Below, piece by piece: positions 52,801 to 64,000 of a stretch of DNA of 64,000 bases. Under the pieces are notes generated by a model. That model was not told the origin of the DNA. It did no database searches and saw only the letters and a list, made by a program, of their open reading frames with translations. The stretch's first letter is position 1. Every line of letters begins with the position of its first letter. The translations under genes and the position numbers were made by a program. This DNA is from a virus (taxonomy: Duplodnaviria; Heunggongvirae; Uroviricota; Caudoviricetes): the IMG/VR virus record IMGVR_UViG_3300029288_000059, positions 64,001 through 128,000 of that record, one strand, 5' to 3'.

Positions 52801-54873
52801 AATTATAATTCATATATCGAAGTTGGGGAGATAAATACTAGTAATAGTATCTATATCGACGGAATACGTATAACTAACGGTATCCGTTATACAACCACAT
52901 TTACCCCCCCTGTTGATTTAACAATATATGATGAATTTACATATCAAACTGTATTATTACTAGATGCTGAACAACAAGCCGCTGGACGTAATATAGAAGA
53001 CCACTCACCCGAACCATTACGGATTAATAATATGGTATCTATTAATCAACTTGTGTTAATACCTAACACAAATGGTAATACTGAATGCATCCATTTAGGT
53101 CAAAACCATAATATTCAGATAACTAATAATATAGCGGATTTTAACCTTACTACCTTTACATTAGATTTTTATACTAGAATTATAAACAATGTTTTTTATA
53201 ATGGGTATATCCATATCGGTACAACGGCAACTGATGGTACTGAATGGTTCGTAGAAGTACAACCGAATTATATCTATATATATACGGGTACCCAGACATT
53301 TTTATATCCAACAATACAGTTCGCTGATATGAATTGGCATCATATAGCGTTTAGTTCGGATGGTAGTAATTTATATCTTTTTGTTGATGGTAAGTTATTA
53401 TCTACTTATAGTATAACGAGTGCTGATTTTGTTAACCCATCTTATGGATTACAAATATATAAAAGTGGTGGATACCATGGTTCAAATGAATTAGGTGAAT
53501 TACGCCTGTCTAATGTATGTAGATATACAAGTGATTTTACAATCCCTACATCAAGTGATTATTTATCAGCTAATGATACACAATGGGCATCGGTATTATT
53601 ATTAACGGGTGCTGGTAATGTTACATCAACAACATGGACTGATGCAACATCTCGACATAGTATTACAGGTACTGGATTCGTAGTATCACCTATTAATAGC
53701 GTTATTGCCCCAACAAGTCGTATTAAAACTCTTAATATTATAGGTGGTACTGATATAACTTCGTTTTGGGATTATCAACATATATTCTCTTCAACTTCTA
53801 AAAATTATTATGATGAATCGTTCATGTTTGGGTTGGTAAATGGTAGAGAATATACTCTTGAATTTAACGTGTATATCCCATCGGGTACAGGTAGTTGCTA
53901 TATCTTATATCAAGGCAGTGTACAATGTCTTAATATTCAATTTGATGGTACTAATTTAGTATTAACTTCCAATGGTGGAATACCTATTACTACTGATGTA
54001 TGGCATCACGTCGCTGTTACTGGCGGCGTAAATGAAAATGTATGGATTGATGGTATATTAGTGTCTAGTATGGCCAAGAATGGCAATGCGTATGTTGATG
54101 GGGAATCATTAACTATTGGTCACCCTTGGATTTATATGGATAATGTAAGATTTACATACGATGTTAATCGTTATACATCAACCTTTACACCCCCAACAAC
54201 ATTAGGTACTAATGTTACTGATGATATATATTACAATAAAGTTAATCTGTTATTAACCGACTTACAAGATAGTGTCAAGTATGTATCTGAATCAAACATT
54301 AACTCACATGATGTTATTTTACAAGGTACTTCTACTATTGATACTAATATAACAAAGTTTGGTACTGGTAGTTTATTATTAGCGAATCCAACAGATGGTA
54401 TCACTGATGCATGGGCTATTATTCCAGTAACTAAGAATGATAATCATACATTCTCACTACATAATACATGGACAATTGAAATGTGGGTATATCCATTAAC
54501 TATTAAAAATTGTACAGTATTATCAGTCAGTCCTGATTGGTCTATAAAATTATCAAATTCGGAATTAGTATTGGATGCGGAAGAAAGCCAATATGCATTA
54601 TCAATATATCCAAACATTAATGAATGGACTCATATAGCAGTTACATATGATGGTACGATATTAAGATGGTTTATGAATGGTGCTTTATCAATCTCATTGG
54701 TTGATACGATTGGTACGATTACCACAACGAATAACTTAGTTATTGGTTGTTCATTAGATAATACGTCTGTGGACGCTTTTAATGGGCATATAGAGGGGTT
54801 GCGTATCACTAGTAGTTGTTTGTACACTACTACATTCACACCCCCTACAACCTCAAATTATGGCTATGTATAA
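49897..54873 (+). CDS. large tail fibre/adhesin with cadherin-like and LamG domains
   Basis: NHAP..EDT..YTP..NYNG.D repeats; WHHIA, IDGIRIT..RYT..FTPP LamG repeats. Confidence 0.8.
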   Translation: MTGVTYTSLSIGKDGPNILNGTGIPNSSIGINGDVYVRKDTTDIYRKISGTWSPVSSSGSVVGSESFATNVSVGNLVYYNSTTKQYELADALIGCNGVRGINNNVLSFSDVFDTGTTTLSVGTVYYVGSSVNNEQGGYTTNDTGLILGTAITTSSIILEVGLPFAVTSELVNTNRSKVMNPQNTFQAIDLYMIQEFMNKANLWESSRRMPNTLTSVNGVVDVDFNNTNYYLTTTENSIFANPSNTILTNNVGKRGIITVKQESTPYTVDFKNKWTVADGVDITHTSNAKDLIDYYINNDNQIDCNIIKNVIARSAIITVNHAPTITSPSSILTSEDTPYTLSNVSFDDSLDTQELVASTVTLSCTHGTFTVTDSNVTITNNGTSNVTVTGMIAQLNTAMGNTVYTPVLNYNGNDSLSVSINDNNNGGGVSAQITSTNIDITISAVWDGSSWGLTAINTNVNTPVIVDTFINQIVKNVSTEVWKWEFTVPTTSITIGGTRVGDVWVVLDSELSTSSITFTEAVPTQAGLLLNFYDDTELYLSNNWHFTVLSNVTYTNHAPILSAPSSFTMNEDTVYNFSNISISDSEDLHEIANTTITFTCSNGTLISNSTDGTHTITLSGAGTSTFSMIGRIVDLNALLTTLTYTPTSNYNGSDTISISVSDGGNGSETAGTNVLTTSGSIDVTISNVLDAPVLTVSDIYVTPNTTTPFPITVTDIDSSAVLTVEISGLGTTYTLNYGTYNSGTDVWSLSYADLTGLTVTSPVTEGTISPVITAFATLGVDVASSSNSITIYNASILTVDNNTLILAPLTTSNQYLVDSSLRNRLFTMSQPLSTDHVFNSTKSINGECTIRKRISNPDRFNFENGYTIEFWHNYEAPTTTFNPNTYQLIKLTSDDTSYIKLSCVSGDMRWDFYDTVIGIQSGQVGSAMSVGWHHIALVYVGTINIGNDCVLYIDGTSVATIPIARSPSNYNSYIEVGEINTSNSIYIDGIRITNGIRYTTTFTPPVDLTIYDEFTYQTVLLLDAEQQAAGRNIEDHSPEPLRINNMVSINQLVLIPNTNGNTECIHLGQNHNIQITNNIADFNLTTFTLDFYTRIINNVFYNGYIHIGTTATDGTEWFVEVQPNYIYIYTGTQTFLYPTIQFADMNWHHIAFSSDGSNLYLFVDGKLLSTYSITSADFVNPSYGLQIYKSGGYHGSNELGELRLSNVCRYTSDFTIPTSSDYLSANDTQWASVLLLTGAGNVTSTTWTDATSRHSITGTGFVVSPINSVIAPTSRIKTLNIIGGTDITSFWDYQHIFSSTSKNYYDESFMFGLVNGREYTLEFNVYIPSGTGSCYILYQGSVQCLNIQFDGTNLVLTSNGGIPITTDVWHHVAVTGGVNENVWIDGILVSSMAKNGNAYVDGESLTIGHPWIYMDNVRFTYDVNRYTSTFTPPTTLGTNVTDDIYYNKVNLLLTDLQDSVKYVSESNINSHDVILQGTSTIDTNITKFGTGSLLLANPTDGITDAWAIIPVTKNDNHTFSLHNTWTIEMWVYPLTIKNCTVLSVSPDWSIKLSNSELVLDAEESQYALSIYPNINEWTHIAVTYDGTILRWFMNGALSISLVDTIGTITTTNNLVIGCSLDNTSVDAFNGHIEGLRITSSCLYTTTFTPPTTSNYGYV

Positions 54874-54884
54874 GGATAGAATAT

Positions 54885-57131
54885 ATGTCAGCAATTTCAT
54901 TTATAATTAAAAAACAGAATAGTACTCCCGTGTTTCGTAACCTATTGTTATCATCAAGTGGATTGGTGGGTTGTGTTCAGTTATTAGCAGCAGGATGTGA
55001 TGTTAATGATACGTATGTCACTAATGGGTTAGGACTAATTGATAACGGACCATTAACTCATATATTTTATTCACAAGATGAATTGACGTGTTTAGATAGT
55101 ACCAACACTCGTTATAATAGTTCTAGTATATCATTAGATAAACCATTAATTGCGACATCTCAGTATATGAATAGTATTAATCAGTTTGATTTTAGTTCAA
55201 ACATATATACGATTGAATTTTGGTATTACACTACTTCTATAACCACGTATAAAACATTATGTCGTATGGAATCACGTACTATTGAACTAAATAAATGGAG
55301 TTCCGCGATTGGTTATATACAAACAGAGGCGGGTAAGATACAAATAACAAACTTCGATACTCATATCTTTACATTTGAGGAAACTTTAAATGTTAATACA
55401 TGGTATCATGTCGCATTCGTTGCCGATGGTACTAATATAAATCTATATCTAAATGGGGTTAAATCATCTACTAGTGCCGATTGTACAATGTATAATCAAG
55501 TTGGTCCATATACTTCGAGTTTTAGTAATTATGATTTTGAAGTTGAAATGTTATCCGGGTGTGTTAGTGGTAAACCTCGTATTACTAAAGAAGTAAGTAG
55601 ATATACTTCTAATTTTACACCACTGGCATATGGTACGGATGGTTCGTGGAGTCTAAGTCAATTAAATGACCCATATTGGAAAGATGTTGTTTTTTATATT
55701 AATGAAGATATATCCCCATTAGGTGACTATAGAGTGGTATGGGATTCGAGTATGAGTCCTAATCGAATTAACACTTATGGTTCAAGTTCAGGTAATCATA
55801 GAATATTATTAGCATCAAATTACTCATTAACAATAATGAATCATATACATTTAAATTATAGATATTTTCTAAAATCTAATATACATACATCTACAAATTT
55901 AAATTGGTATCCACAAGAACCATTCCCACAATTATCACAGGGTAGAATTTATACATTAGAATATCAAATTTATATTCCTGATACGGTTACGGTATGGACT
56001 CCAATTATTGGTACATTAAAAGGACCACAAATTGGTATGTGGTTAACTACTGATAAACATATTTGTTTTGGTACTTTAAAATTAGATACTAGTTTATATG
56101 ATTACAATGTGGGACATTGGGTGGGTACATATCCACCTACCCAATTAGTTGATACGTTGTCATTAACATCACCTATTACCACTGGTTGGCACCATATTGC
56201 AGTCGTATATGATGGTGGTGCTAATACCGTTATGTATATTGATGGCATTACATCCAGTACTATGGCTTCACAGACATTGAGTGTAGATACTACTCAAAAT
56301 GGATTTGGTATATTAATTGGGGCGGATAGTTCTAATGTATTATTAGACGATTTAAGATTAACATTAGAAGTAGCACGATATACAACAGATTTCACCCCAC
56401 CTAATAGTTCTCTACCAATCGGTTCTAGTGATACATATTGGGATAATGTATGGATTTTATTACAAGGTGGTGATACAGAACGACAATATGTACCATCACG
56501 TATTGGTAAGAATATTGTATTACATGGTAATACTCAAGTATTAACTACTCCAGTTGCCGTTACTGATACAAAAACAACTCCTAAGGGTTCAACTTTGTTC
56601 TTTGATAATCCAACTAAAGGTGAGACTGAGTCATGGGCTACCGTTGCCTGTGAAATGTATAATCCATATACTTGGTCGATAACAGATACTGGGTTTACTG
56701 CCGAGTTATGGGTTAATACAAAGGATAGTAGGACTGCAAAATTAGTATCTACTCGTAGTAGTGATGAATCAGGTTGGGAAGTATGGCTAAACGGTTTGGA
56801 GATTAGAGTTCAAATACATGGTGTTGGAGTTTTTAATACATCAACTGCTTTAACGATTAATACGTGGTATCATATAGCGTTTACATACGACCCTACGTCC
56901 CATTCTATAAAAATATTCATTAATGGGGTGCTTGAATCAACATCTACTAGTGTGTCACCAACTAATGGTATGAAATGGCGAGTATTGGATATTGGGGCTC
57001 CAATGAATGGTCCATTTCCTACTACTGAATCGTTTAATGGGTATATTCAAGACCTACGTATTACTAATAAATGTCTCTATACTGAAGATTTTATACCGCG
57101 TACAACAACGTTTGGTTTAACCACTTATTAG
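54885..57131 (+). CDS. LamG-domain tail protein
   Basis: three WxH[IV]A..RIT..YT..F.P units. Confidence 0.8.
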   Translation: MSAISFIIKKQNSTPVFRNLLLSSSGLVGCVQLLAAGCDVNDTYVTNGLGLIDNGPLTHIFYSQDELTCLDSTNTRYNSSSISLDKPLIATSQYMNSINQFDFSSNIYTIEFWYYTTSITTYKTLCRMESRTIELNKWSSAIGYIQTEAGKIQITNFDTHIFTFEETLNVNTWYHVAFVADGTNINLYLNGVKSSTSADCTMYNQVGPYTSSFSNYDFEVEMLSGCVSGKPRITKEVSRYTSNFTPLAYGTDGSWSLSQLNDPYWKDVVFYINEDISPLGDYRVVWDSSMSPNRINTYGSSSGNHRILLASNYSLTIMNHIHLNYRYFLKSNIHTSTNLNWYPQEPFPQLSQGRIYTLEYQIYIPDTVTVWTPIIGTLKGPQIGMWLTTDKHICFGTLKLDTSLYDYNVGHWVGTYPPTQLVDTLSLTSPITTGWHHIAVVYDGGANTVMYIDGITSSTMASQTLSVDTTQNGFGILIGADSSNVLLDDLRLTLEVARYTTDFTPPNSSLPIGSSDTYWDNVWILLQGGDTERQYVPSRIGKNIVLHGNTQVLTTPVAVTDTKTTPKGSTLFFDNPTKGETESWATVACEMYNPYTWSITDTGFTAELWVNTKDSRTAKLVSTRSSDESGWEVWLNGLEIRVQIHGVGVFNTSTALTINTWYHIAFTYDPTSHSIKIFINGVLESTSTSVSPTNGMKWRVLDIGAPMNGPFPTTESFNGYIQDLRITNKCLYTEDFIPRTTTFGLTTY

Positions 57132-58955: not shown

Positions 58956-59426
58956 ATGATGAAAAAAGCATATATCATGATTGGATTACCAGGTAGTGGT
59001 AAATCCACTTGGATAAACGATAATGCTAGTTGTGCTAAAGTGTTAAGCACTGATAATATCATTGACTCCTATTGTCGTCAAAATAACATTACTTATAATG
59101 AAGGGTTCAAACGTTTTATTAAACTTGCTACTAATCAGTTCAATAACGAATTATCTAATATTAATAATTATAAGGGTGATATTGTTATTGACCAAACAAA
59201 TCTAACTAAGAAATCACGGGCTTATAAATTAAAGAAATTATCTTCATTCAAGAAGATAGCAGTTGTTTGTAAACTTGATAGTGATGAGTTGCAACGCAGA
59301 TTAGATAATCGTTCAATTCAAGATGGTAAGACAATACCATCAAATATTATATCAAGTATGATACTTTCTTATGAACAACCAACACTAGATGAGTTTGATG
59401 AAATTATATATGTGAATGGAAAGTGA
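58956..59426 (+). CDS. P-loop kinase (AAA_33/polynucleotide kinase-like)
   Basis: GLPGSGKSTW, STD, IDQTNL..KSR. Confidence 0.85.
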   Translation: MMKKAYIMIGLPGSGKSTWINDNASCAKVLSTDNIIDSYCRQNNITYNEGFKRFIKLATNQFNNELSNINNYKGDIVIDQTNLTKKSRAYKLKKLSSFKKIAVVCKLDSDELQRRLDNRSIQDGKTIPSNIISSMILSYEQPTLDEFDEIIYVNGK

Positions 59427-59853
59427 TATGATTGAAATCCATACAGATGGTGCTTGTAGTGGTAATCCAGGACCGGGTGGTTGGGGTGCTATTATTGTTT
59501 ATCCAACTGAAAAAGTTGAATTAAAAGGTGGTGAACCACATACTACCAATCAACGAATGGAGTTAATGGGTGTTATTAAGTCATTAGAGACAATTACTGA
59601 ACCAAATGACATTATAATCCATACGGATTCACAATATGTCCAAAAAGGATTTATGGAATGGTTATCTAATTGGATTAAGAATGGTTGGGTTAATAGTAAT
59701 AAGAAACCAGTCGCTAATAAGGACTTATGGTTAGCATTAATTAACGCTAGTAAAATTCATCATGTTAAGATTGTATGGGTTAAGGGACATAACGGTAATG
59801 AGATGAATGAACGAGTTAATACTTTAGCTCAACATGAGAGTAAGCATAATTAG
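59416..59853 (+). CDS. rnhA: ribonuclease HI
   Basis: TDGACSGNPGPGGWG, TTNQRMEL, TDSQY, WVKGH..NE. Confidence 0.95.
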   Translation: MESDMIEIHTDGACSGNPGPGGWGAIIVYPTEKVELKGGEPHTTNQRMELMGVIKSLETITEPNDIIIHTDSQYVQKGFMEWLSNWIKNGWVNSNKKPVANKDLWLALINASKIHHVKIVWVKGHNGNEMNERVNTLAQHESKHN

Positions 59854-60287
59854 TTCCTGTATATTACCATTTCCATTTCCTTTTCATTTTTTATTATGTA
59901 TGATGTTTCATTGAATTGTGATGAGAATATTTTACGATATTCTCTATATTTTGGTGAGAACCATATATTATAACGTGGAATGATATATCTATACCAAACA
60001 TAGTCTAAAACGTTATTAGCATCGTATGATAGTTCATTCGGTTCTGTTATCTCAATAATCCCATTAGTTTTCAATATTCGTTTAAATTCTAGTACCAACG
60101 CCCCTAAGTCTTGCACGTGATGAATTACGTTTTGGCATTTGATACAATCGACAGATGAATCGTTTATTCCAATAATTCTATTTTGTTCTATGTCATAAAG
60201 ATAATCAAGTGTGAACGTCGGTTCAATATCACAGGTGAAATATCCATCTGTTGGTGAATAGCCGGAGCCAAAATCTAACTTAAACAT
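59850..60287 (-). CDS. class I SAM-dependent methyltransferase
   Basis: LDFGSG, NVIHHV, EFKRILKTNG. Confidence 0.8.
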   Translation of the reverse strand: MFKLDFGSGYSPTDGYFTCDIEPTFTLDYLYDIEQNRIIGINDSSVDCIKCQNVIHHVQDLGALVLEFKRILKTNGIIEITEPNELSYDANNVLDYVWYRYIIPRYNIWFSPKYREYRKIFSSQFNETSYIIKNEKEMEMVIYRN

Positions 60288-60994
60288 AGATGACCCTTCC
60301 CGTTAATAACATCATTAAACTCTAATGTGCTTGTACTATTGGGCAGAATAATAAGGTTGTCATGTGTATTATCGTGGTGGAATGACCAAAAATTAAAATT
60401 ATTACGAGTAAGAGTGAATACATTGTAGTTTTGATGTTGTTCTATACTATATGGTTCATCTATTATTTTTGAGAATATAGAAGTCTCTATTGGAATATCT
60501 TTCATATCTTCACAAAACGTTAATCCTATATTATTAGAACTAGCATATTTTATAATATCATAGTATGTACTGAAATTGCCAATTCTTGACATAAAAACAT
60601 TTAATCGTACATTACAATGATTTTGTAACTCTTTAATTTTAAAAAGAATATTATGGTTTTTGAAGTTTGGCATACTTATATTAATATTTGTAATACCGGC
60701 ATTAATACAATCATTGTAAAATGAAATATCACCTTTGCCATTAGTCGTAAGGTTGTATTGTTGTGCTTTATTTAATGGTATAATTGTATTTAATAGTTCA
60801 ATGGTTTTGGTGGGATAATCGGACAACTCACCACCCATGAATGTCATATACTCTACATCAGGAACATTACTTAGTGCCAATAAGGCATTAGAAGGGGTTA
60901 AGAATACCCCTTCTTTATGTTTTTGATAACAGAATGGACAATTAGAATTACATTTGTATGTTCCAATTATCCTTATACCTGTTATATTAGCCAT
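60275..60994 (-). CDS. radical SAM protein
   Basis: CNSNCPFC, MGGE, TTNG; likely true start MANITG at 60994. Confidence 0.85.
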   Translation of the reverse strand: MANITGIRIIGTYKCNSNCPFCYQKHKEGVFLTPSNALLALSNVPDVEYMTFMGGELSDYPTKTIELLNTIIPLNKAQQYNLTTNGKGDISFYNDCINAGITNINISMPNFKNHNILFKIKELQNHCNVRLNVFMSRIGNFSTYYDIIKYASSNNIGLTFCEDMKDIPIETSIFSKIIDEPYSIEQHQNYNVFTLTRNNFNFWSFHHDNTHDNLIILPNSTSTLEFNDVINGKGHLCLS

Positions 60995-61127
60995 CGCTGT
61001 CTTCATCATGAATAAGTGACATTTGCCCACACGCTGCATTAGCTTGTATTTCTGCTTCGGTTGCAATGGCAATAGCACAATCAAATCCAACATCTTCAAC
61101 GGTTTTAAGTAATTCTTCTTTAGTCAT
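60987..61127 (-). CDS. 46-aa peptide corresponding to the RlmN C-terminal AACGQ segment
   Basis: MTKEELLKTVEDVGFDCAIAIATEAEIQANAACGQMSLIHDEDSDG; own AAGGAG RBS; overlaps the next start. Confidence 0.8.
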   Translation of the reverse strand: MTKEELLKTVEDVGFDCAIAIATEAEIQANAACGQMSLIHDEDSDG

Positions 61128-61139
61128 TTATATTACTCC

Positions 61140-62003
61140 TTATATGTTGTTCTTATAATGGAACAACGTTTTAATCCCCGATTCGTCCGAACTAACGTTT
61201 TCATTAATTGGGGATATCTTAATGAAGACTGTATCTTTATCGAACTGAGTAAGTAAGTCACTTGGTACAAACGGGGTATTTTCCGATAGTGCAAAGTTTA
61301 AAGTTACTTTCCATGGTCGATTAGGAATACTATTGTAATAGTATTTGATAAGTTCACCAAGTTCTTTATTATCAATTACTAATTTATTTTGAAGCCATTT
61401 ACGATAACTATTATCTGAGCTATGGATTGAAAACTGTAACTCGAGCCAATCTTTACCGTATATTAGTTCCAACTTCATTAACTTATTAACGAGTTTATAC
61501 GATTGACTTATACCAATGGTCGATATTTGAATTCTTGCCATTGGGTACTTATCTTTAATTAATCTAATACCGTCAATGACGTTATCGATATTTAGACTTG
61601 GTTCGCCCATACGAGTAAAGAGTACTCTGAATATTTCAGAATCATTAGGTGATTTAACCTTATTAGTAATAGTCAAAGTATGTTTAATGGCCATTTCAAC
61701 TTGGTCAAATATTTCCTGACTAGTTAAGTTTCTAAATCCTTGTTTTTCTGTTAGTTTATTAACGGCACAGAATTTACATTTTATTGGACAACCACTTTGA
61801 GTGGAAACGCCAATGCACCATTTTTCATTCCATAAATCCATATCTTTAAGATTTATATCTGTCGCATTGTTTTGTTTGCCGGTTATTCGTATTTCGGTAC
61901 TTTTTGGTAAACAGGTCGAAGTTGTTTCAATCTTCATATTATCATGTAACAATACAACCCCTACCCAACCGTTTGTAAATTTTCTAATCTTTGATAATTT
62001 CAT
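61140..62003 (-). CDS. RlmN/Cfr-like radical SAM protein lacking the C-terminal AACGQ segment
   Basis: IET, VSTQSGCPIKCKFC, RNLT..EIFDQV, RMGEP, ISTIG, LQFSIHS. Confidence 0.85.
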   Translation of the reverse strand: MKLSKIRKFTNGWVGVVLLHDNMKIETTSTCLPKSTEIRITGKQNNATDINLKDMDLWNEKWCIGVSTQSGCPIKCKFCAVNKLTEKQGFRNLTSQEIFDQVEMAIKHTLTITNKVKSPNDSEIFRVLFTRMGEPSLNIDNVIDGIRLIKDKYPMARIQISTIGISQSYKLVNKLMKLELIYGKDWLELQFSIHSSDNSYRKWLQNKLVIDNKELGELIKYYYNSIPNRPWKVTLNFALSENTPFVPSDLLTQFDKDTVFIKISPINENVSSDESGIKTLFHYKNNI

Positions 62004-62015
62004 GATAGAAAATCC

Positions 62016-62261
62016 TTATAATGAATACATTAATGTTTGTAATTGTTTTTTAAGTTGGGCGGTACATTTGACTTCTTCGAGTTCTACTAAAAAGCCATAA
62101 GTAAATGACCAAACTTTACAATCACATCCGCTTGCGTTGATTTGACCAATAAACATAACGGTACTATGTTTAACTACATAATAGTAACCGTCACATTTAA
62201 AGATACCATCTTTCTTAGTTTTAGCGTTCTCTATTAACTTTTGTAATATATCTCTTTTCAT
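62016..62261 (-). CDS. hypothetical early protein
   Basis: GAGG RBS plus early promoter. Confidence 0.55.
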   Translation of the reverse strand: MKRDILQKLIENAKTKKDGIFKCDGYYYVVKHSTVMFIGQINASGCDCKVWSFTYGFLVELEEVKCTAQLKKQLQTLMYSL

Positions 62262-62302
62262 AACTACCTCTATATGTTAATTTATAACTTTAATATAACA
62301 TA
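62261..62302. repeat. 42-bp direct repeat (promoter core plus RBS), second copy at 63228-63269
   Basis: taactacctctatatgttaatttataactttaatataacata is identical in both places. Confidence 0.85.
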
Positions 62303-62474
62303 AAACATACATACTGTCAAATGAAATAGTCATTATTATGATTCACGAATGGCTATTTGATTGTCGAAACTTTTTCAATATTCAATAGAAAATTCAAATG
62401 CTTTATTTTTAGATACAATTACCATTTCAAAATCGTCCATAAATAATAAGATTTTTTTACGTTATTAAACTGGT

Positions 62475-63359: not shown

Positions 63360-64000
63360 ATGTTACCTGTAACAACTGATAGTCTTTCTTTATATATGTA
63401 CCAAATCAAACAATTTCCATTGTTGACATTGGAAGAAGAAATGGATTTGGCGAATCGATATATACAATCACAGGATGTAAATGCCGCATATAAATTAGTC
63501 ACAAGTCATTTACGCTACGCCGCTAGTATAGCATTCAAATATAGGGGTTATGGTTTGCCGATGATGGATATTATATCCGAAGCTAATATTGGACTAATGA
63601 AAGCTCTTAAACGATATGATCCAACAATAGGTAGGTTTGTAACGTATTCTCGGTTATGGATTAAAGCTCAAATACATGAATTTCTATTAGCTAATGTGTC
63701 AATGTTAAAGATATGTAGTAATAAGACTCGTTCAAAACTACTAAAGGGATTACATAATTTAACTCGGCAGTTACATTATTGTCAAGATATTGAACAAACA
63801 TATATTACTGTTGCTAAAGACATAGATGTAACCGTAGATGAACTTAGAGAGTTCCAACAGAGGTTTTACCCTACTATATCATTAAATTGTCCACAGGATG
63901 AAAACTCATCGGCGGCAACATTACAAGATAGAATTGTCGATGAAACACCATTAGTAGAGGAAGTATTAATCGAAGAACAAGAAACTACTAATGTTAATAA
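63360..64000 (+). CDS. RpoH (sigma32)-like sigma factor, runs off the window end
   Basis: MLPVTTDSLSLY..FPLLTLEEE..KLVTSHLR..YRGYGLPMMDIISEANIGLMKALKRYDP..WIKAQIHEF. Confidence 0.85.
   Translation, partial: MLPVTTDSLSLYMYQIKQFPLLTLEEEMDLANRYIQSQDVNAAYKLVTSHLRYAASIAFKYRGYGLPMMDIISEANIGLMKALKRYDPTIGRFVTYSRLWIKAQIHEFLLANVSMLKICSNKTRSKLLKGLHNLTRQLHYCQDIEQTYITVAKDIDVTVDELREFQQRFYPTISLNCPQDENSSAATLQDRIVDETPLVEEVLIEEQETTNVN

What the first reader, a model, noticed from the sequence alone, without database searches (positions are those of the whole stretch)
59850..62003. Split RlmN-like radical SAM enzyme with its catalytic Cys on a separate peptide and no resolving Cys, in an operon with a second radical SAM enzyme and a methyltransferase
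Seen: 61140-62003 has RlmN/Cfr core motifs (CxxxCxxC, MGEP, STIG, SIHS) but stops before the C-terminal AACGQ. A 46-aa ORF absent from the ORF track (60987-61127) carries ..EIQANAACGQMS. It has its own AAGGAG RBS overlapping the upstream stop, and its stop overlaps the next ATG. The residue 7 before the first cluster Cys is Gly (WCIGVSTQSGC), not Cys; a Cys sits 2 residues further upstream. Known: in E. coli RlmN, C355 (AACGQ) is S-methylated and forms a covalent methylene-bridged adduct with RNA, C118 resolves it, and C118 mutants trap the crosslink. Inference: the peptide is a trans-acting methyl carrier or RiPP-like substrate. It may stay covalently attached to a nucleic acid or other target, or be tailored by the downstream radical SAM enzyme and methyltransferase. 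This would be a peptide-conjugation/modification pathway rather than ordinary rRNA methylation.
Basis: partly seen in the sequence, partly recalled or inferred. Interest (0 to 1): 0.85.

Follow-up and report, generated by a model that had tools for sequence, protein, structure and literature searches.

The report
Two-piece phage RlmN-like radical SAM enzyme
This giant phage makes an RlmN/Cfr-type radical-SAM enzyme in two pieces: a 287-residue core that lacks the second catalytic cysteine, and a separate 46-residue peptide that carries the key cysteine. Thousands of phages share this design, I found no paper describing it, and its target is unknown.

Summary
The minus strand holds an RlmN/Cfr-like core (62003-61140), a 46-aa AACGQ peptide with its own AAGGAG site (61127-60987), a second radical SAM enzyme (60994-60275) and a small class I methyltransferase (60287-59850). 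The split is not a lesion. All 120 best relatives of the core are short. 80 of 85 viral loci carry a separate peptide gene. 113 of 127 peptide representatives are under 100 aa. The RlmN C118 position is Gly in the aligned and locus-scanned relatives (about 60); the window's Cys two residues upstream is not conserved. A rare natural fusion aligns end to end with E. coli RlmN through C355. The predicted complex passes (0.76 against 0.02 for the best control), though likeness to solved RlmN may explain that. The second enzyme and the methyltransferase are an optional pair, kept beside core and peptide in several gene orders. The peptide also occurs fused to each enzyme type. In 14 of 40 lineages NAD+ salvage genes flank the cassette. 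Whether the product is a methylated base or a lasting peptide adduct is untested. This scan found the family before, in at least eight other genomes. I found no paper on it.

The parts
62292..62320 (-). Promoter-like site (TTGACA, 17 nt, TG-TATATT; 11 of 12 matches) upstream of the 81-aa ORF that precedes the core. It is a possible start of the transcription unit.
   Evidence: This is a consensus match only. No terminator-like site was found on the minus strand between here and 59850.
62016..62261 (-). 81-aa ORF of unknown function directly upstream of the core (a 12-nt gap). It is possibly co-transcribed. It is not part of the conserved cassette.
   Evidence: no Pfam hit. It joined no recurrent neighbour cluster.
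61140..62003 (-). Core enzyme A: a truncated RlmN/Cfr-like radical SAM protein of 287 aa. Cluster Cys are C72, C76 and C79. Gly65 occupies the RlmN C118 position. It has no C-terminal Cys loop and no RlmN N-terminal helical domain.
61136..61141 (-). AAGGAG ribosome-binding site of the peptide gene, overlapping the core's TAA stop.
   Evidence: Similar Shine-Dalgarno sites precede the peptide gene in relatives.
60987..61127 (-). 46-aa acidic peptide, homologous to RlmN's C-terminal helix-strand-loop. Invariant Cys33 (codon 61031-61029) lies in AACGQ and matches RlmN C355.
60275..60994 (-). Enzyme B: second radical SAM protein of 239 aa, with cluster Cys C15/C19/C22 and an invariant extra Cys161-Glu. 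Its fold is nearest MoaA and viperin. It is an optional partner that always travels with the methyltransferase.
59850..60287 (-). Enzyme M: minimal class I SAM-dependent methyltransferase of 145 aa (motifs DFGSG, CD, RNVxHH, WYR, YRD). In many relatives the peptide is fused to its C-terminus.

Best explanation
Core A and the peptide together form a two-piece class A (RlmN/Cfr-type) radical SAM enzyme.

SHOWN OR STRONGLY SUPPORTED
- The peptide is the homolog of RlmN's last ~40 residues.
- It is translated on its own.
- In the model its strand (residues 15-19) adds onto the core's last strand (259-265), beside the N-terminal hairpin. That would leave the AACGQ loop free to reach the SAM/cluster site, as in RlmN.

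INFERRED FROM THE RlmN/Cfr MECHANISM
- One SAM methylates Cys33.
- A second SAM gives 5'-deoxyadenosyl radical, which takes an H from the S-methyl group.
- The resulting Cys-S-CH2 radical adds to an sp2 carbon of an adenine-type substrate.

WHERE IT MUST DIFFER
The base that resolves this adduct in RlmN (C118) and Cfr (C105) is Gly in the aligned and locus-scanned family members. The reaction therefore cannot end the way RlmN's does.

MY COMMITMENT
The free peptide is an exchangeable, probably single-use methylene carrier. Splitting it off lets the core turn over while the peptide is consumed or handed on. I put the two-piece enzyme itself at about 0.85. I put the single-use carrier idea at about 0.4.

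ACCESSORY GENES AND TARGET
B (a MoaA/viperin-like radical SAM enzyme) and M (a small methyltransferase) are an optional accessory pair. They act on the same substrate or on the peptide. The target is unknown. Gene neighbourhoods point more to an adenine nucleotide linked to NAD+ metabolism than to rRNA.
For: THE SPLIT IS THE NORM
- 1298 relatives of the core at E<=1e-10. The best 120 are 169-320 aa, the full-length ones 260-304, and none carries the Cys tail. The two longest owe their length to upstream start calls.
- 453 viral contigs encode a relative.
- 80 of 85 loci have a separate same-strand peptide ORF.
- 113 of 127 peptide representatives in 1.84 billion proteins are under 100 aa.

HOMOLOGY TO RlmN
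- The core profile hits only RlmN and Cfr structures, E 7e-19 to 6e-16.
- The rare natural fusion P0191 aligns with E. coli RlmN across residues 66-313, including ...aacgqls against ...AACGQLA.

THE RESOLVING CYS IS ABSENT
- G65 is invariant in 17 diverse sequences. The only invariant Cys are the three cluster ligands.
- Gly also holds this position in about 45 genome loci and in the fusion P0191.
- C118 and C105 are indispensable for resolving the crosslink (PMC9692996).
- A sister phage RlmN-like family that keeps both Cys is unsplit.

BINDING
- Complex prediction gave ipSAE 0.76 against a best control of 0.02. This mark was reached by 58 of 80 solved complexes and 2 of 110 mismatched pairs.
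- The runs agree in at least 52% of contacts, and the partner's pLDDT is at least 60.
- RlmN structures exist, so the pass may reflect likeness rather than show that this copy binds.

DOSAGE AND CARRIER HINTS
- Consensus Shine-Dalgarno sites precede the peptide gene.
- Vibrio phage D479 has a tandem double peptide. The two copies differ at 19% of bases but at only 2 of 32 residues.

B AND M
- Four gene orders keep A, peptide, B and M together.
- The peptide is fused to M in 17 clusters, to a second radical SAM type in 3, and to A in 2.

TARGET LEAD
- NAD+ salvage genes of two non-homologous routes flank the cassette in 14 of 40 lineages.
- B's fold is nearest the NTP-using enzymes MoaA and viperin.
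Against: - No biochemistry: methylation of Cys33, the substrate and the product are all inferred.
- Another base (a Glu, water, or a peptide residue) could replace C118 and allow ordinary methyl transfer.
- In this window alone, Cys63 lies two residues from G65, and the model lists residue 63 at the interface. A local substitute cannot be excluded.
- Fusions of the peptide to whole enzymes (M, B2) sit badly with a throw-away carrier. All M fusions do keep a Met at the peptide's start, so internal initiation is possible.
- Closely related crAss-like phages differ in having B and M or not, yet their peptides are nearly identical. B and M are therefore not needed for the core reaction.
- This phage record has no NAD+ salvage gene (the record is 79% complete). 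I did not measure a background rate for that neighbourhood link.
- The peptide profile alone does not retrieve RlmN from the PDB.
Confidence: 0.6

Rival explanations
1. An ordinary class A methylase in two neutral pieces. Core plus peptide make m2A or m8A on tRNA or rRNA with full turnover, and some other group does C118's job. The split is only a scar left by mobile-gene insertion.
For: - Homing endonuclease genes sit at the junction. There is a GIY-YIG gene between core and peptide in L008, and the peptide ORF runs on from GIY-YIG or HNH genes in P0172, P0192 and P0195.
- Rare fused forms exist (P0191).
- A sister phage family with both Cys lies in a tRNA gene cluster.
- RtcB lies nearby in 3 lineages.
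Against: - C118 and C105 are reported as indispensable in RlmN and Cfr. Yet Gly holds that position in the aligned and scanned family members, split or fused.
- The core lacks RlmN's N-terminal domain.
- This genome has only 2 tRNA genes, none in the window.
- The commonest neighbours are NAD+ salvage genes, not RNA genes.
Confidence: 0.3
2. A RiPP-like pathway. The peptide is a precursor whose Cys is tailored by A, B and M into a released bioactive product.
For: - It is a small separate ORF beside two radical SAM enzymes and a methyltransferase.
- B gives weak NCBIfam hits to peptide maturases (PapB, HxsC, YydG) alongside MoaA and viperin.
Against: - The peptide is conserved across its full length in phages of Bacteroidota, Bacillota, Pseudomonadota and archaeal-binned contigs. 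It has no leader plus variable core.
- It is homologous to an enzyme segment.
- About half of the loci lack B and M.
- It works as a C-terminal tail of three different enzymes.
- B has no SPASM domain, and its fold is nearest MoaA and viperin.
Confidence: 0.07
3. B and M are passenger genes that merely share the operon and have no functional tie to core and peptide.
For: - B and M are absent from about half of the loci.
- M homologs stand alone in 82 Bacillus phages.
- In the M-peptide fusion model the peptide tail has pLDDT 46-67, so it is not confidently packed on M.
Against: - In every family locus examined here, B appears with A and the peptide, in orders A-B-M-pep, A-pep-B-M, pep-B-A-M and A-pep-M-B across distant lineages.
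- Stable M-peptide fusions occur in 17 clusters that are 38-84% identical to each other.
Confidence: 0.15
4. A broken gene or sequencing error: the stop after ...YKNNI is a lesion in a once-fused RlmN gene.
For: None beyond the first impression of a truncated enzyme.
Against: - The same end point recurs in all 17 aligned relatives, and none of the best 120 carries the tail.
- The peptide has its own start codon and ribosome-binding site.
- The gene order varies, with the peptide upstream in L016 and L104.
Confidence: 0.01

Closest known systems
RlmN (23S rRNA A2503 / tRNA A37 C2-methyl synthase; TIGR00048; PDB 3RFA, 4PL1, 5HR7, 6FZ6)
   Same: - Radical SAM core with CX3CX2C, GEP, STxG and SxHS motifs.
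- A C-terminal helix-strand-AACGQ loop with the methyl-carrier Cys.
- End-to-end alignment with the natural fusion P0191.
   Different: - The Cys loop is on a separate gene.
- The C118 position is Gly.
- There is no N-terminal helical RNA-binding domain.
- It scores 64 bits against a 290-bit cutoff.
- It is phage-borne and often sits among NAD+ salvage genes.
Cfr (23S rRNA A2503 C8-methyl synthase; TIGR04432; PDB 9P0P)
   Same: The same class A chemistry and fold. It is hit at E 6e-16 by the core profile.
   Different: Cfr is a single chain with both Cys (C338 and C105, per PMC9692996). The window protein scores 43-46 bits against cutoffs of 530-550.
RlmN C118A/S mutants (trapped covalent enzyme-RNA adduct; PDB 5HR7)
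   Same: They lack the resolving Cys while keeping the methyl-carrier Cys. By analogy, the phage pair should stall at Cys-S-CH2-adenine.
   Different: Those are laboratory mutants of a single-chain enzyme. Here the state is natural and uniform in every relative examined, and the Cys is on a 4-5 kDa peptide, so any adduct would leave the core free.
Unsplit phage RlmN-like family (Stenotrophomonas phage ANB28, Salmonella phage Arash)
   Same: Phage-borne and short (310-320 aa), with no RlmN N-terminal domain and about 30% identity to the core.
   Different: It is a single chain and keeps both Cys (..CCSTQSGC / ..MCVSTQAGC and GGGCGQLW). In ANB28 it lies in a tRNA gene cluster.
Genes in pieces made by homing endonuclease insertion (for example the split nrdA of Aeromonas phage Aeh1; recalled from memory, not checked here)
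   Same: A functional enzyme is encoded as two ORFs, with a free-standing endonuclease gene at the junction in some relatives (L008).
   Different: Here the split goes with loss of a catalytic residue and with fusions of the small piece to other enzymes. The window itself has no endonuclease gene at the junction.

Membership tests
Class A radical SAM methylases (RlmN/Cfr) | Radical SAM CX3CX2C cluster motif and SAM-binding core | tested here: met
   C72/C76/C79, TRMGEP, STIG and SIHS are present. Pfam PF04055 scores 38.4 bits against a cutoff of 29.5.
Class A radical SAM methylases (RlmN/Cfr) | Methyl-carrier Cys in a C-terminal AACGQ loop (RlmN C355, Cfr C338) | tested here: met
   It is present, but on a separate 46-aa peptide as Cys33. 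The fusion P0191 aligns it with RlmN's AACGQL.
Class A radical SAM methylases (RlmN/Cfr) | Resolving Cys seven residues before the first cluster Cys (RlmN C118, Cfr C105) | tested here: not met
   Gly65 is invariant in 17 aligned sequences and present in about 45 further loci. Cys63 is unique to this phage among the 17 aligned sequences.
Class A radical SAM methylases (RlmN/Cfr) | Score above the curated family cutoffs (TIGR00048 290 bits; TIGR04432 550 bits) | tested here: not met
   64.3 and 42.9 bits.
Class A radical SAM methylases (RlmN/Cfr) | N-terminal helical RNA-binding domain | tested here: not met
   Alignments to RlmN start at chain residue ~95-116 and core residue ~60. The first 59 residues are a hairpin plus a family-specific insert. 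This was judged from alignment coverage only.
Class A radical SAM methylases (RlmN/Cfr) | Makes m2A or m8A on RNA | not testable with these tools
   This needs biochemistry.
RiPP precursor plus maturase systems | Precursor with a conserved leader and a variable core; the maturase has a peptide-recognition or SPASM/twitch domain | tested here: not met
   The peptide is conserved throughout, with 11 invariant residues. B has no SPASM domain and is nearest MoaA and viperin.
Phage NAD+ reconstitution pathways (NARP2-like, Preiss-Handler-like) | Encodes NAMPT, NMNAT, PncA/PncB or NadE activities | tested here: not met
   The cassette genes are none of these. It is only a neighbour of such genes, in 14 of 40 lineages, and not in this genome.

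The most novel reading that the evidence does not exclude
The peptide is a single-use methylene carrier that ends up joined, through Cys-S-CH2, to C2 or C8 of an adenine nucleotide. The nucleotide could be NAD+, ADP-ribose or an ADPR-derived immune signal. The product would be an enzyme-made peptide-nucleotide conjugate that phages use in the NAD+ conflict with host defence. B and M would process the same molecule further.
Probability: 0.2. Interest if true: 0.92.

Novelty: new variant of a known kind. Interest (0 to 1): 0.72.

Why it matters
RlmN and Cfr are the only characterised class A radical SAM methylases, and both need two cysteines on one chain. Here nature has removed the resolving cysteine and put the carrier cysteine on a free peptide. 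That is the state enzymologists create by mutation to trap the covalent intermediate.

The design occurs in over a thousand protein clusters, in phages of very different hosts:
- human-gut crAss-like phages;
- Vibrio, Pectobacterium and Yersinia phages;
- a Moorella phage.

Several of these are culturable, so the question is directly testable.

Depending on the outcome, it would reveal one of two things. One is a new way to finish class A methyl transfer. The other is a new enzyme-made peptide-nucleotide or peptide-nucleic acid conjugate. The repeated placement inside NAD+ salvage clusters suggests a role in the phage-host conflict over NAD+.

Tried and rejected
- DNA-level search of phage records found only short, unrelated matches.
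- Aligning the fusion P0191 with cores and free peptides in one MAFFT run misplaced the peptides on the N-terminus (alignment A3). I did not use it for folding.
- The peptide profile against PDB sequences gave only chance hits and no RlmN. Homology of the peptide rests on the natural fusion instead.
- The M-peptide fusion model has a confident M domain but a low-confidence peptide tail. It gives no information on whether M binds the peptide.
- The fold search for M returned only generic class I methyltransferases at TM about 0.5.
- B has no match in isolated phage genomes.
- Net charge: cores range from -13 to +32, and the sister family is acidic too. Charge does not separate an RNA target from a small-molecule target.
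- There are no tRNA genes in the window and two in the genome.
- Six literature searches found no description of a split or C118-less phage RlmN-like enzyme, and none linking radical SAM genes to the NARP pathways. NARP3 is unrelated.
- I ran no further search on M or B with the peptide, so those contacts remain untested.
Full report
WHAT IS IN THE WINDOW

The window is part of a 289.8-kb virus record with 31% G+C, estimated 79% complete. On the minus strand four genes follow each other with overlapping or near-abutting ends.

- Core A: 62003-61140, 287 aa.
- Peptide: 61127-60987, 46 aa.
- Enzyme B: 60994-60275, 239 aa, a second radical SAM enzyme.
- Enzyme M: 60287-59850, 145 aa, a class I methyltransferase.

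- the core motifs CPIKCKFC, TRMGEP, QISTIG and QFSIHS;
- the core's end at ...YKNNI without AACGQ;
- AACGQ in the peptide;
- an AAGGAG site overlapping the core's stop codon;
- the next ATG lying inside the peptide's last codons;
- Gly seven residues before the first cluster Cys, with a Cys two residues further upstream.

A strong sigma-70-like site at 62320-62292 precedes an 81-aa ORF just upstream. No terminator-like site interrupts the minus strand, so the unit may hold five genes. Pfam calls both larger proteins Radical_SAM and the last one Methyltransf_11. NCBIfam ranks RlmN and then Cfr first for the core, but at 64 and 43-46 bits, far below the cutoffs of 290 and 530-550.

THE SPLIT IS REAL AND IS THE NORMAL STATE OF A LARGE PHAGE FAMILY

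- A protein search found 1298 relatives of the core at E<=1e-10. The best 120 are 169-320 aa, the full-length ones 260-304, and none carries the Cys tail. The two longest I checked owe their length to upstream start calls, not to a Cys tail.
- Seventeen diverse members all end at the same point.
- IMG/VR holds 453 contigs with a relative.
- Of 85 loci examined, 80 carry a separate same-strand small ORF with the A-x-CGQ motif. It usually lies directly after the core.
- Isolated phages show the same layout: Vibrio phage D479, Pectobacterium phages Wc4 and Arno, Yersinia phage P778, the crAss-like Kehishuvirus 'tikkala' and Moorella phage MTATph1.
- A profile of 13 peptides has 11 invariant positions (G14, A18, A20, A22, T23, E26, A31, A32, C33, G34, Q35).
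- Read against 1.84 billion representative proteins, that profile finds 127 matches, of which 113 are under 100 aa.
- Outside Bacteroidota phages the peptide gene has consensus Shine-Dalgarno sites.
- Among one genome each of 185,579 prokaryote species, only about 45 contigs hold a full-length relative. Most are metagenome bins that look viral.

THE PEPTIDE IS RlmN'S C-TERMINAL SEGMENT

The core profile hits only RlmN and Cfr among solved structures, at E 7e-19 to 6e-16. A rare natural fusion of core and peptide, P0191 (318 aa), aligns with E. coli RlmN from residue 66 to 313. Its segment ...elaengydyaiatatdeeiaegaacgqls lies on RlmN's ...vlmsygfttivrktrgddi--daacgqla. The peptide is therefore the helix-strand-loop that carries C355.

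The complex model supports docking:
- ipSAE is 0.76 against a best control of 0.02.
- This mark was reached by 58 of 80 solved complexes and 2 of 110 mismatched pairs.
- The runs agree in at least 52% of contacts, and the partner's pLDDT is at least 60.
- The best-defined contacts pair peptide residues 15-19 with core residues 259-265, the last strand.
- The peptide's helix lies on core residues 247-251, and residues 20-26 touch the N-terminal hairpin.

RlmN structures are solved, so this pass may show likeness rather than prove that this copy binds.

THE RESOLVING CYSTEINE IS MISSING IN EVERY RELATIVE EXAMINED

In the alignments to RlmN, the position of C118 is Gly65 (the 4PL1 and 5HR6 chains are C118A mutants). 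G65 is invariant in the 17-sequence alignment, where the only invariant Cys are the three cluster ligands. Gly also holds this position in about 45 genome-derived loci and in the fused form P0191.

The window's Cys63 is Met or Thr in the relatives, so it cannot be the family's substitute. The model does list residue 63 at the interface, so a local role in this phage cannot be excluded.

A review of the field states three points (PMC9692996):
- C355 in RlmN (C338 in Cfr) is methylated and forms the covalent adduct.
- C118 (C105 in Cfr) is indispensable for resolving it, probably acting as a base.
- C118A traps the crosslink.

A second phage RlmN-like family is a single chain with both Cys. It includes Stenotrophomonas phage ANB28, where the gene lies inside a tRNA gene cluster, and Salmonella phage Arash. 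So the family in which the gene is split is the one that lost the resolving Cys, though its rare fused members lack it too.

B AND M ARE AN OPTIONAL BUT LINKED PAIR

Architectures among the viral loci are:
- A-pep: 40 loci.
- A-B-M-pep: 40 loci.
- A-pep-B-M: the window and L013.
- pep-B-A-M: L016.

Genome-derived loci add A-pep-M-B and A-B2-pep. Closely related crAss-like phages, whose cores are 92% identical, differ by the presence of B and M while their peptides are nearly identical. So core and peptide suffice for the basic reaction.

A search for longer proteins holding the peptide gave these fusions:
- to the C-terminus of M in 17 clusters that are 38-84% identical to each other;
- to a second radical SAM type (B2; P0157, P0160, P0167);
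- to the core itself (P0191 and the irregular P0186).

It also found the peptide running on from GIY-YIG or HNH endonuclease genes. Every M fusion keeps a Met at the start of the peptide part, so free peptide may still be made.

In an AlphaFold model of an M-peptide fusion the M domain is confident (pLDDT above 90). The peptide tail is not (pLDDT 46-67). This fits a tethered arm that docks elsewhere.

On the individual enzymes:
- M's fold is a generic class I methyltransferase.
- M homologs also stand alone in 82 Bacillus phages.
- B has an invariant fourth Cys, C161, followed by Glu.
- B has no SPASM domain.
- B's fold is nearest MoaA (TM 0.69-0.74) and viperin (TM about 0.6). Both act on nucleoside triphosphates.

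HOW THE SPLIT MAY HAVE ARISEN

In L008 a GIY-YIG endonuclease gene lies between core and peptide. Other gene insertions occupy the same junction: small ORFs in Wc4, P778 and L006, and B plus M in the crAss-like loci. In one contig (L140) a LAGLIDADG-type intein interrupts the core exactly at the third cluster Cys. The locus is clearly a target for mobile elements. This can explain how the two pieces came apart. It does not explain why the resolving Cys is gone.

TARGET

Nothing here shows the substrate. I clustered all ORFs of 70 aa or more around the cassette in 131 loci, which fall into 40 lineages (cores under 80% identical). Apart from B and M, the most recurrent neighbours are NAD+ salvage genes:
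- an NMN adenylyltransferase-Nudix fusion, in 11 lineages;
- NAMPT;
- nicotinamidase-NAPRTase fusions;
- nicotinamidase-NAD synthase fusions;
- a NadD-like enzyme.

Together they appear in 14 of 40 lineages. In L013 the four-gene cassette sits between the NMNAT-Nudix gene and NAMPT on one strand. In L087 these two genes directly follow the M-peptide fusion.

Two non-homologous salvage routes are involved, which argues against simple inherited synteny. I did not measure a background rate, and this window's own genome has none of these genes. RtcB lies nearby in 3 lineages.

Taken with B's MoaA/viperin-like fold and the missing RNA-binding domain, I lean towards an adenine nucleotide linked to NAD+ metabolism, at about 0.4, over rRNA or tRNA. 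Earlier notes of this scan on other genomes reached the same lead. I tested it independently here.

MECHANISM

What is shown is the anatomy and the homology. The chemistry is inferred: SAM methylates Cys33, 5'-deoxyadenosyl radical activates the S-methyl group, and the methylene radical adds to an sp2 carbon.

With no C118, two outcomes are possible:
- another base completes methyl transfer (about 0.3-0.35); or
- the adduct persists or is processed differently, with the peptide as an exchangeable, probably single-use carrier (about 0.4).

The second outcome would explain several things:
- why the split family is the one without the resolving Cys;
- why fused cores are so rare;
- why the peptide gene has strong translation signals;
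- why phage D479 keeps a tandem double peptide whose copies differ at 19% of bases but at only 2 of 32 residues.

The fusions to whole enzymes count against a throw-away carrier.

NOVELTY

Six full-text searches found no description of this system. This scan has met the same family in at least eight other genomes. I file it as a new variant of a known kind: class A radical SAM chemistry, in two pieces, without the resolving cysteine.

Noticed in passing
L001:4863-5048 (Vibrio phage D479): The peptide gene holds two tandem copies of the whole peptide unit (96-bp period). The copies match at only 81% of bases but differ at 2 of 32 residues. Both copies are therefore under purifying selection, and this is not an assembly artefact.
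   Followed up: partly
L140:143-1768 (contig binned with a Methanoregula MAG): The core gene carries an insert of about 340 aa exactly at the third cluster Cys (..GCKF|CLLPTS...VHN|CATG..). The insert has LAGLIDADG-like motifs, so it is probably an intein in the radical SAM cluster motif.
   Followed up: no
L008:2568-3266 (minus strand): A GIY-YIG-type homing endonuclease gene lies between the core and the peptide gene. Elsewhere the peptide ORF runs on from GIY-YIG or HNH genes (P0172, P0192, P0195).
   Followed up: partly
L090:2426-3385 (Stenotrophomonas phage ANB28); L091:2393-3322 (Salmonella phage Arash): A second phage RlmN-like family: short, unsplit, and keeping both catalytic Cys. In ANB28 it sits inside a cluster of tRNA genes.
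   Followed up: partly
L013:1389-7347; L087:3307-7987: The cassette is embedded between or beside an NMNAT-Nudix gene and a NAMPT gene on one strand. NAD+ salvage genes of two different routes neighbour the cassette in 14 of 40 lineages.
   Followed up: partly
L086:6470-8049: RtcB appears as two consecutive ORFs (185 and 276 aa) a few genes after the B2-peptide fusion. RtcB also lies near the cassette in L019, L022 and L029.
   Followed up: no
L026:4280-5047 and relatives: In crAss-like phages, enzyme B has a stretched cluster motif (C-x11-C-x2-C) in place of the window's C-x3-C-x2-C.
   Followed up: no
L002:4879-5157; L003:4878-5150: Pectobacterium phage Wc4 and Yersinia phage P778 share a homologous ORF of about 90 aa, with one conserved Cys, between core and peptide. 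The window has no such ORF.
   Followed up: no
L172:3007-4444 (Bacillus phage TsarBomba): A stand-alone homolog of M lies two genes after a tRNA-His guanylyltransferase gene. 82 Bacillus phages carry M homologs, and none appeared among the core's tblastn matches listed.
   Followed up: no
window 58956-59853 (+) and 63360-63998 (+): An AAA_33 kinase-like gene and an RNase H gene converge on the operon's end, with a 4-nt tail-to-tail overlap at 59850-59853. A sigma-70 family gene starts at 63360.
   Followed up: no
window 54816-57131 (+): A 771-aa protein with three Laminin_G_3 (concanavalin-like) stretches. It is probably a structural or host-binding protein.
   Followed up: no
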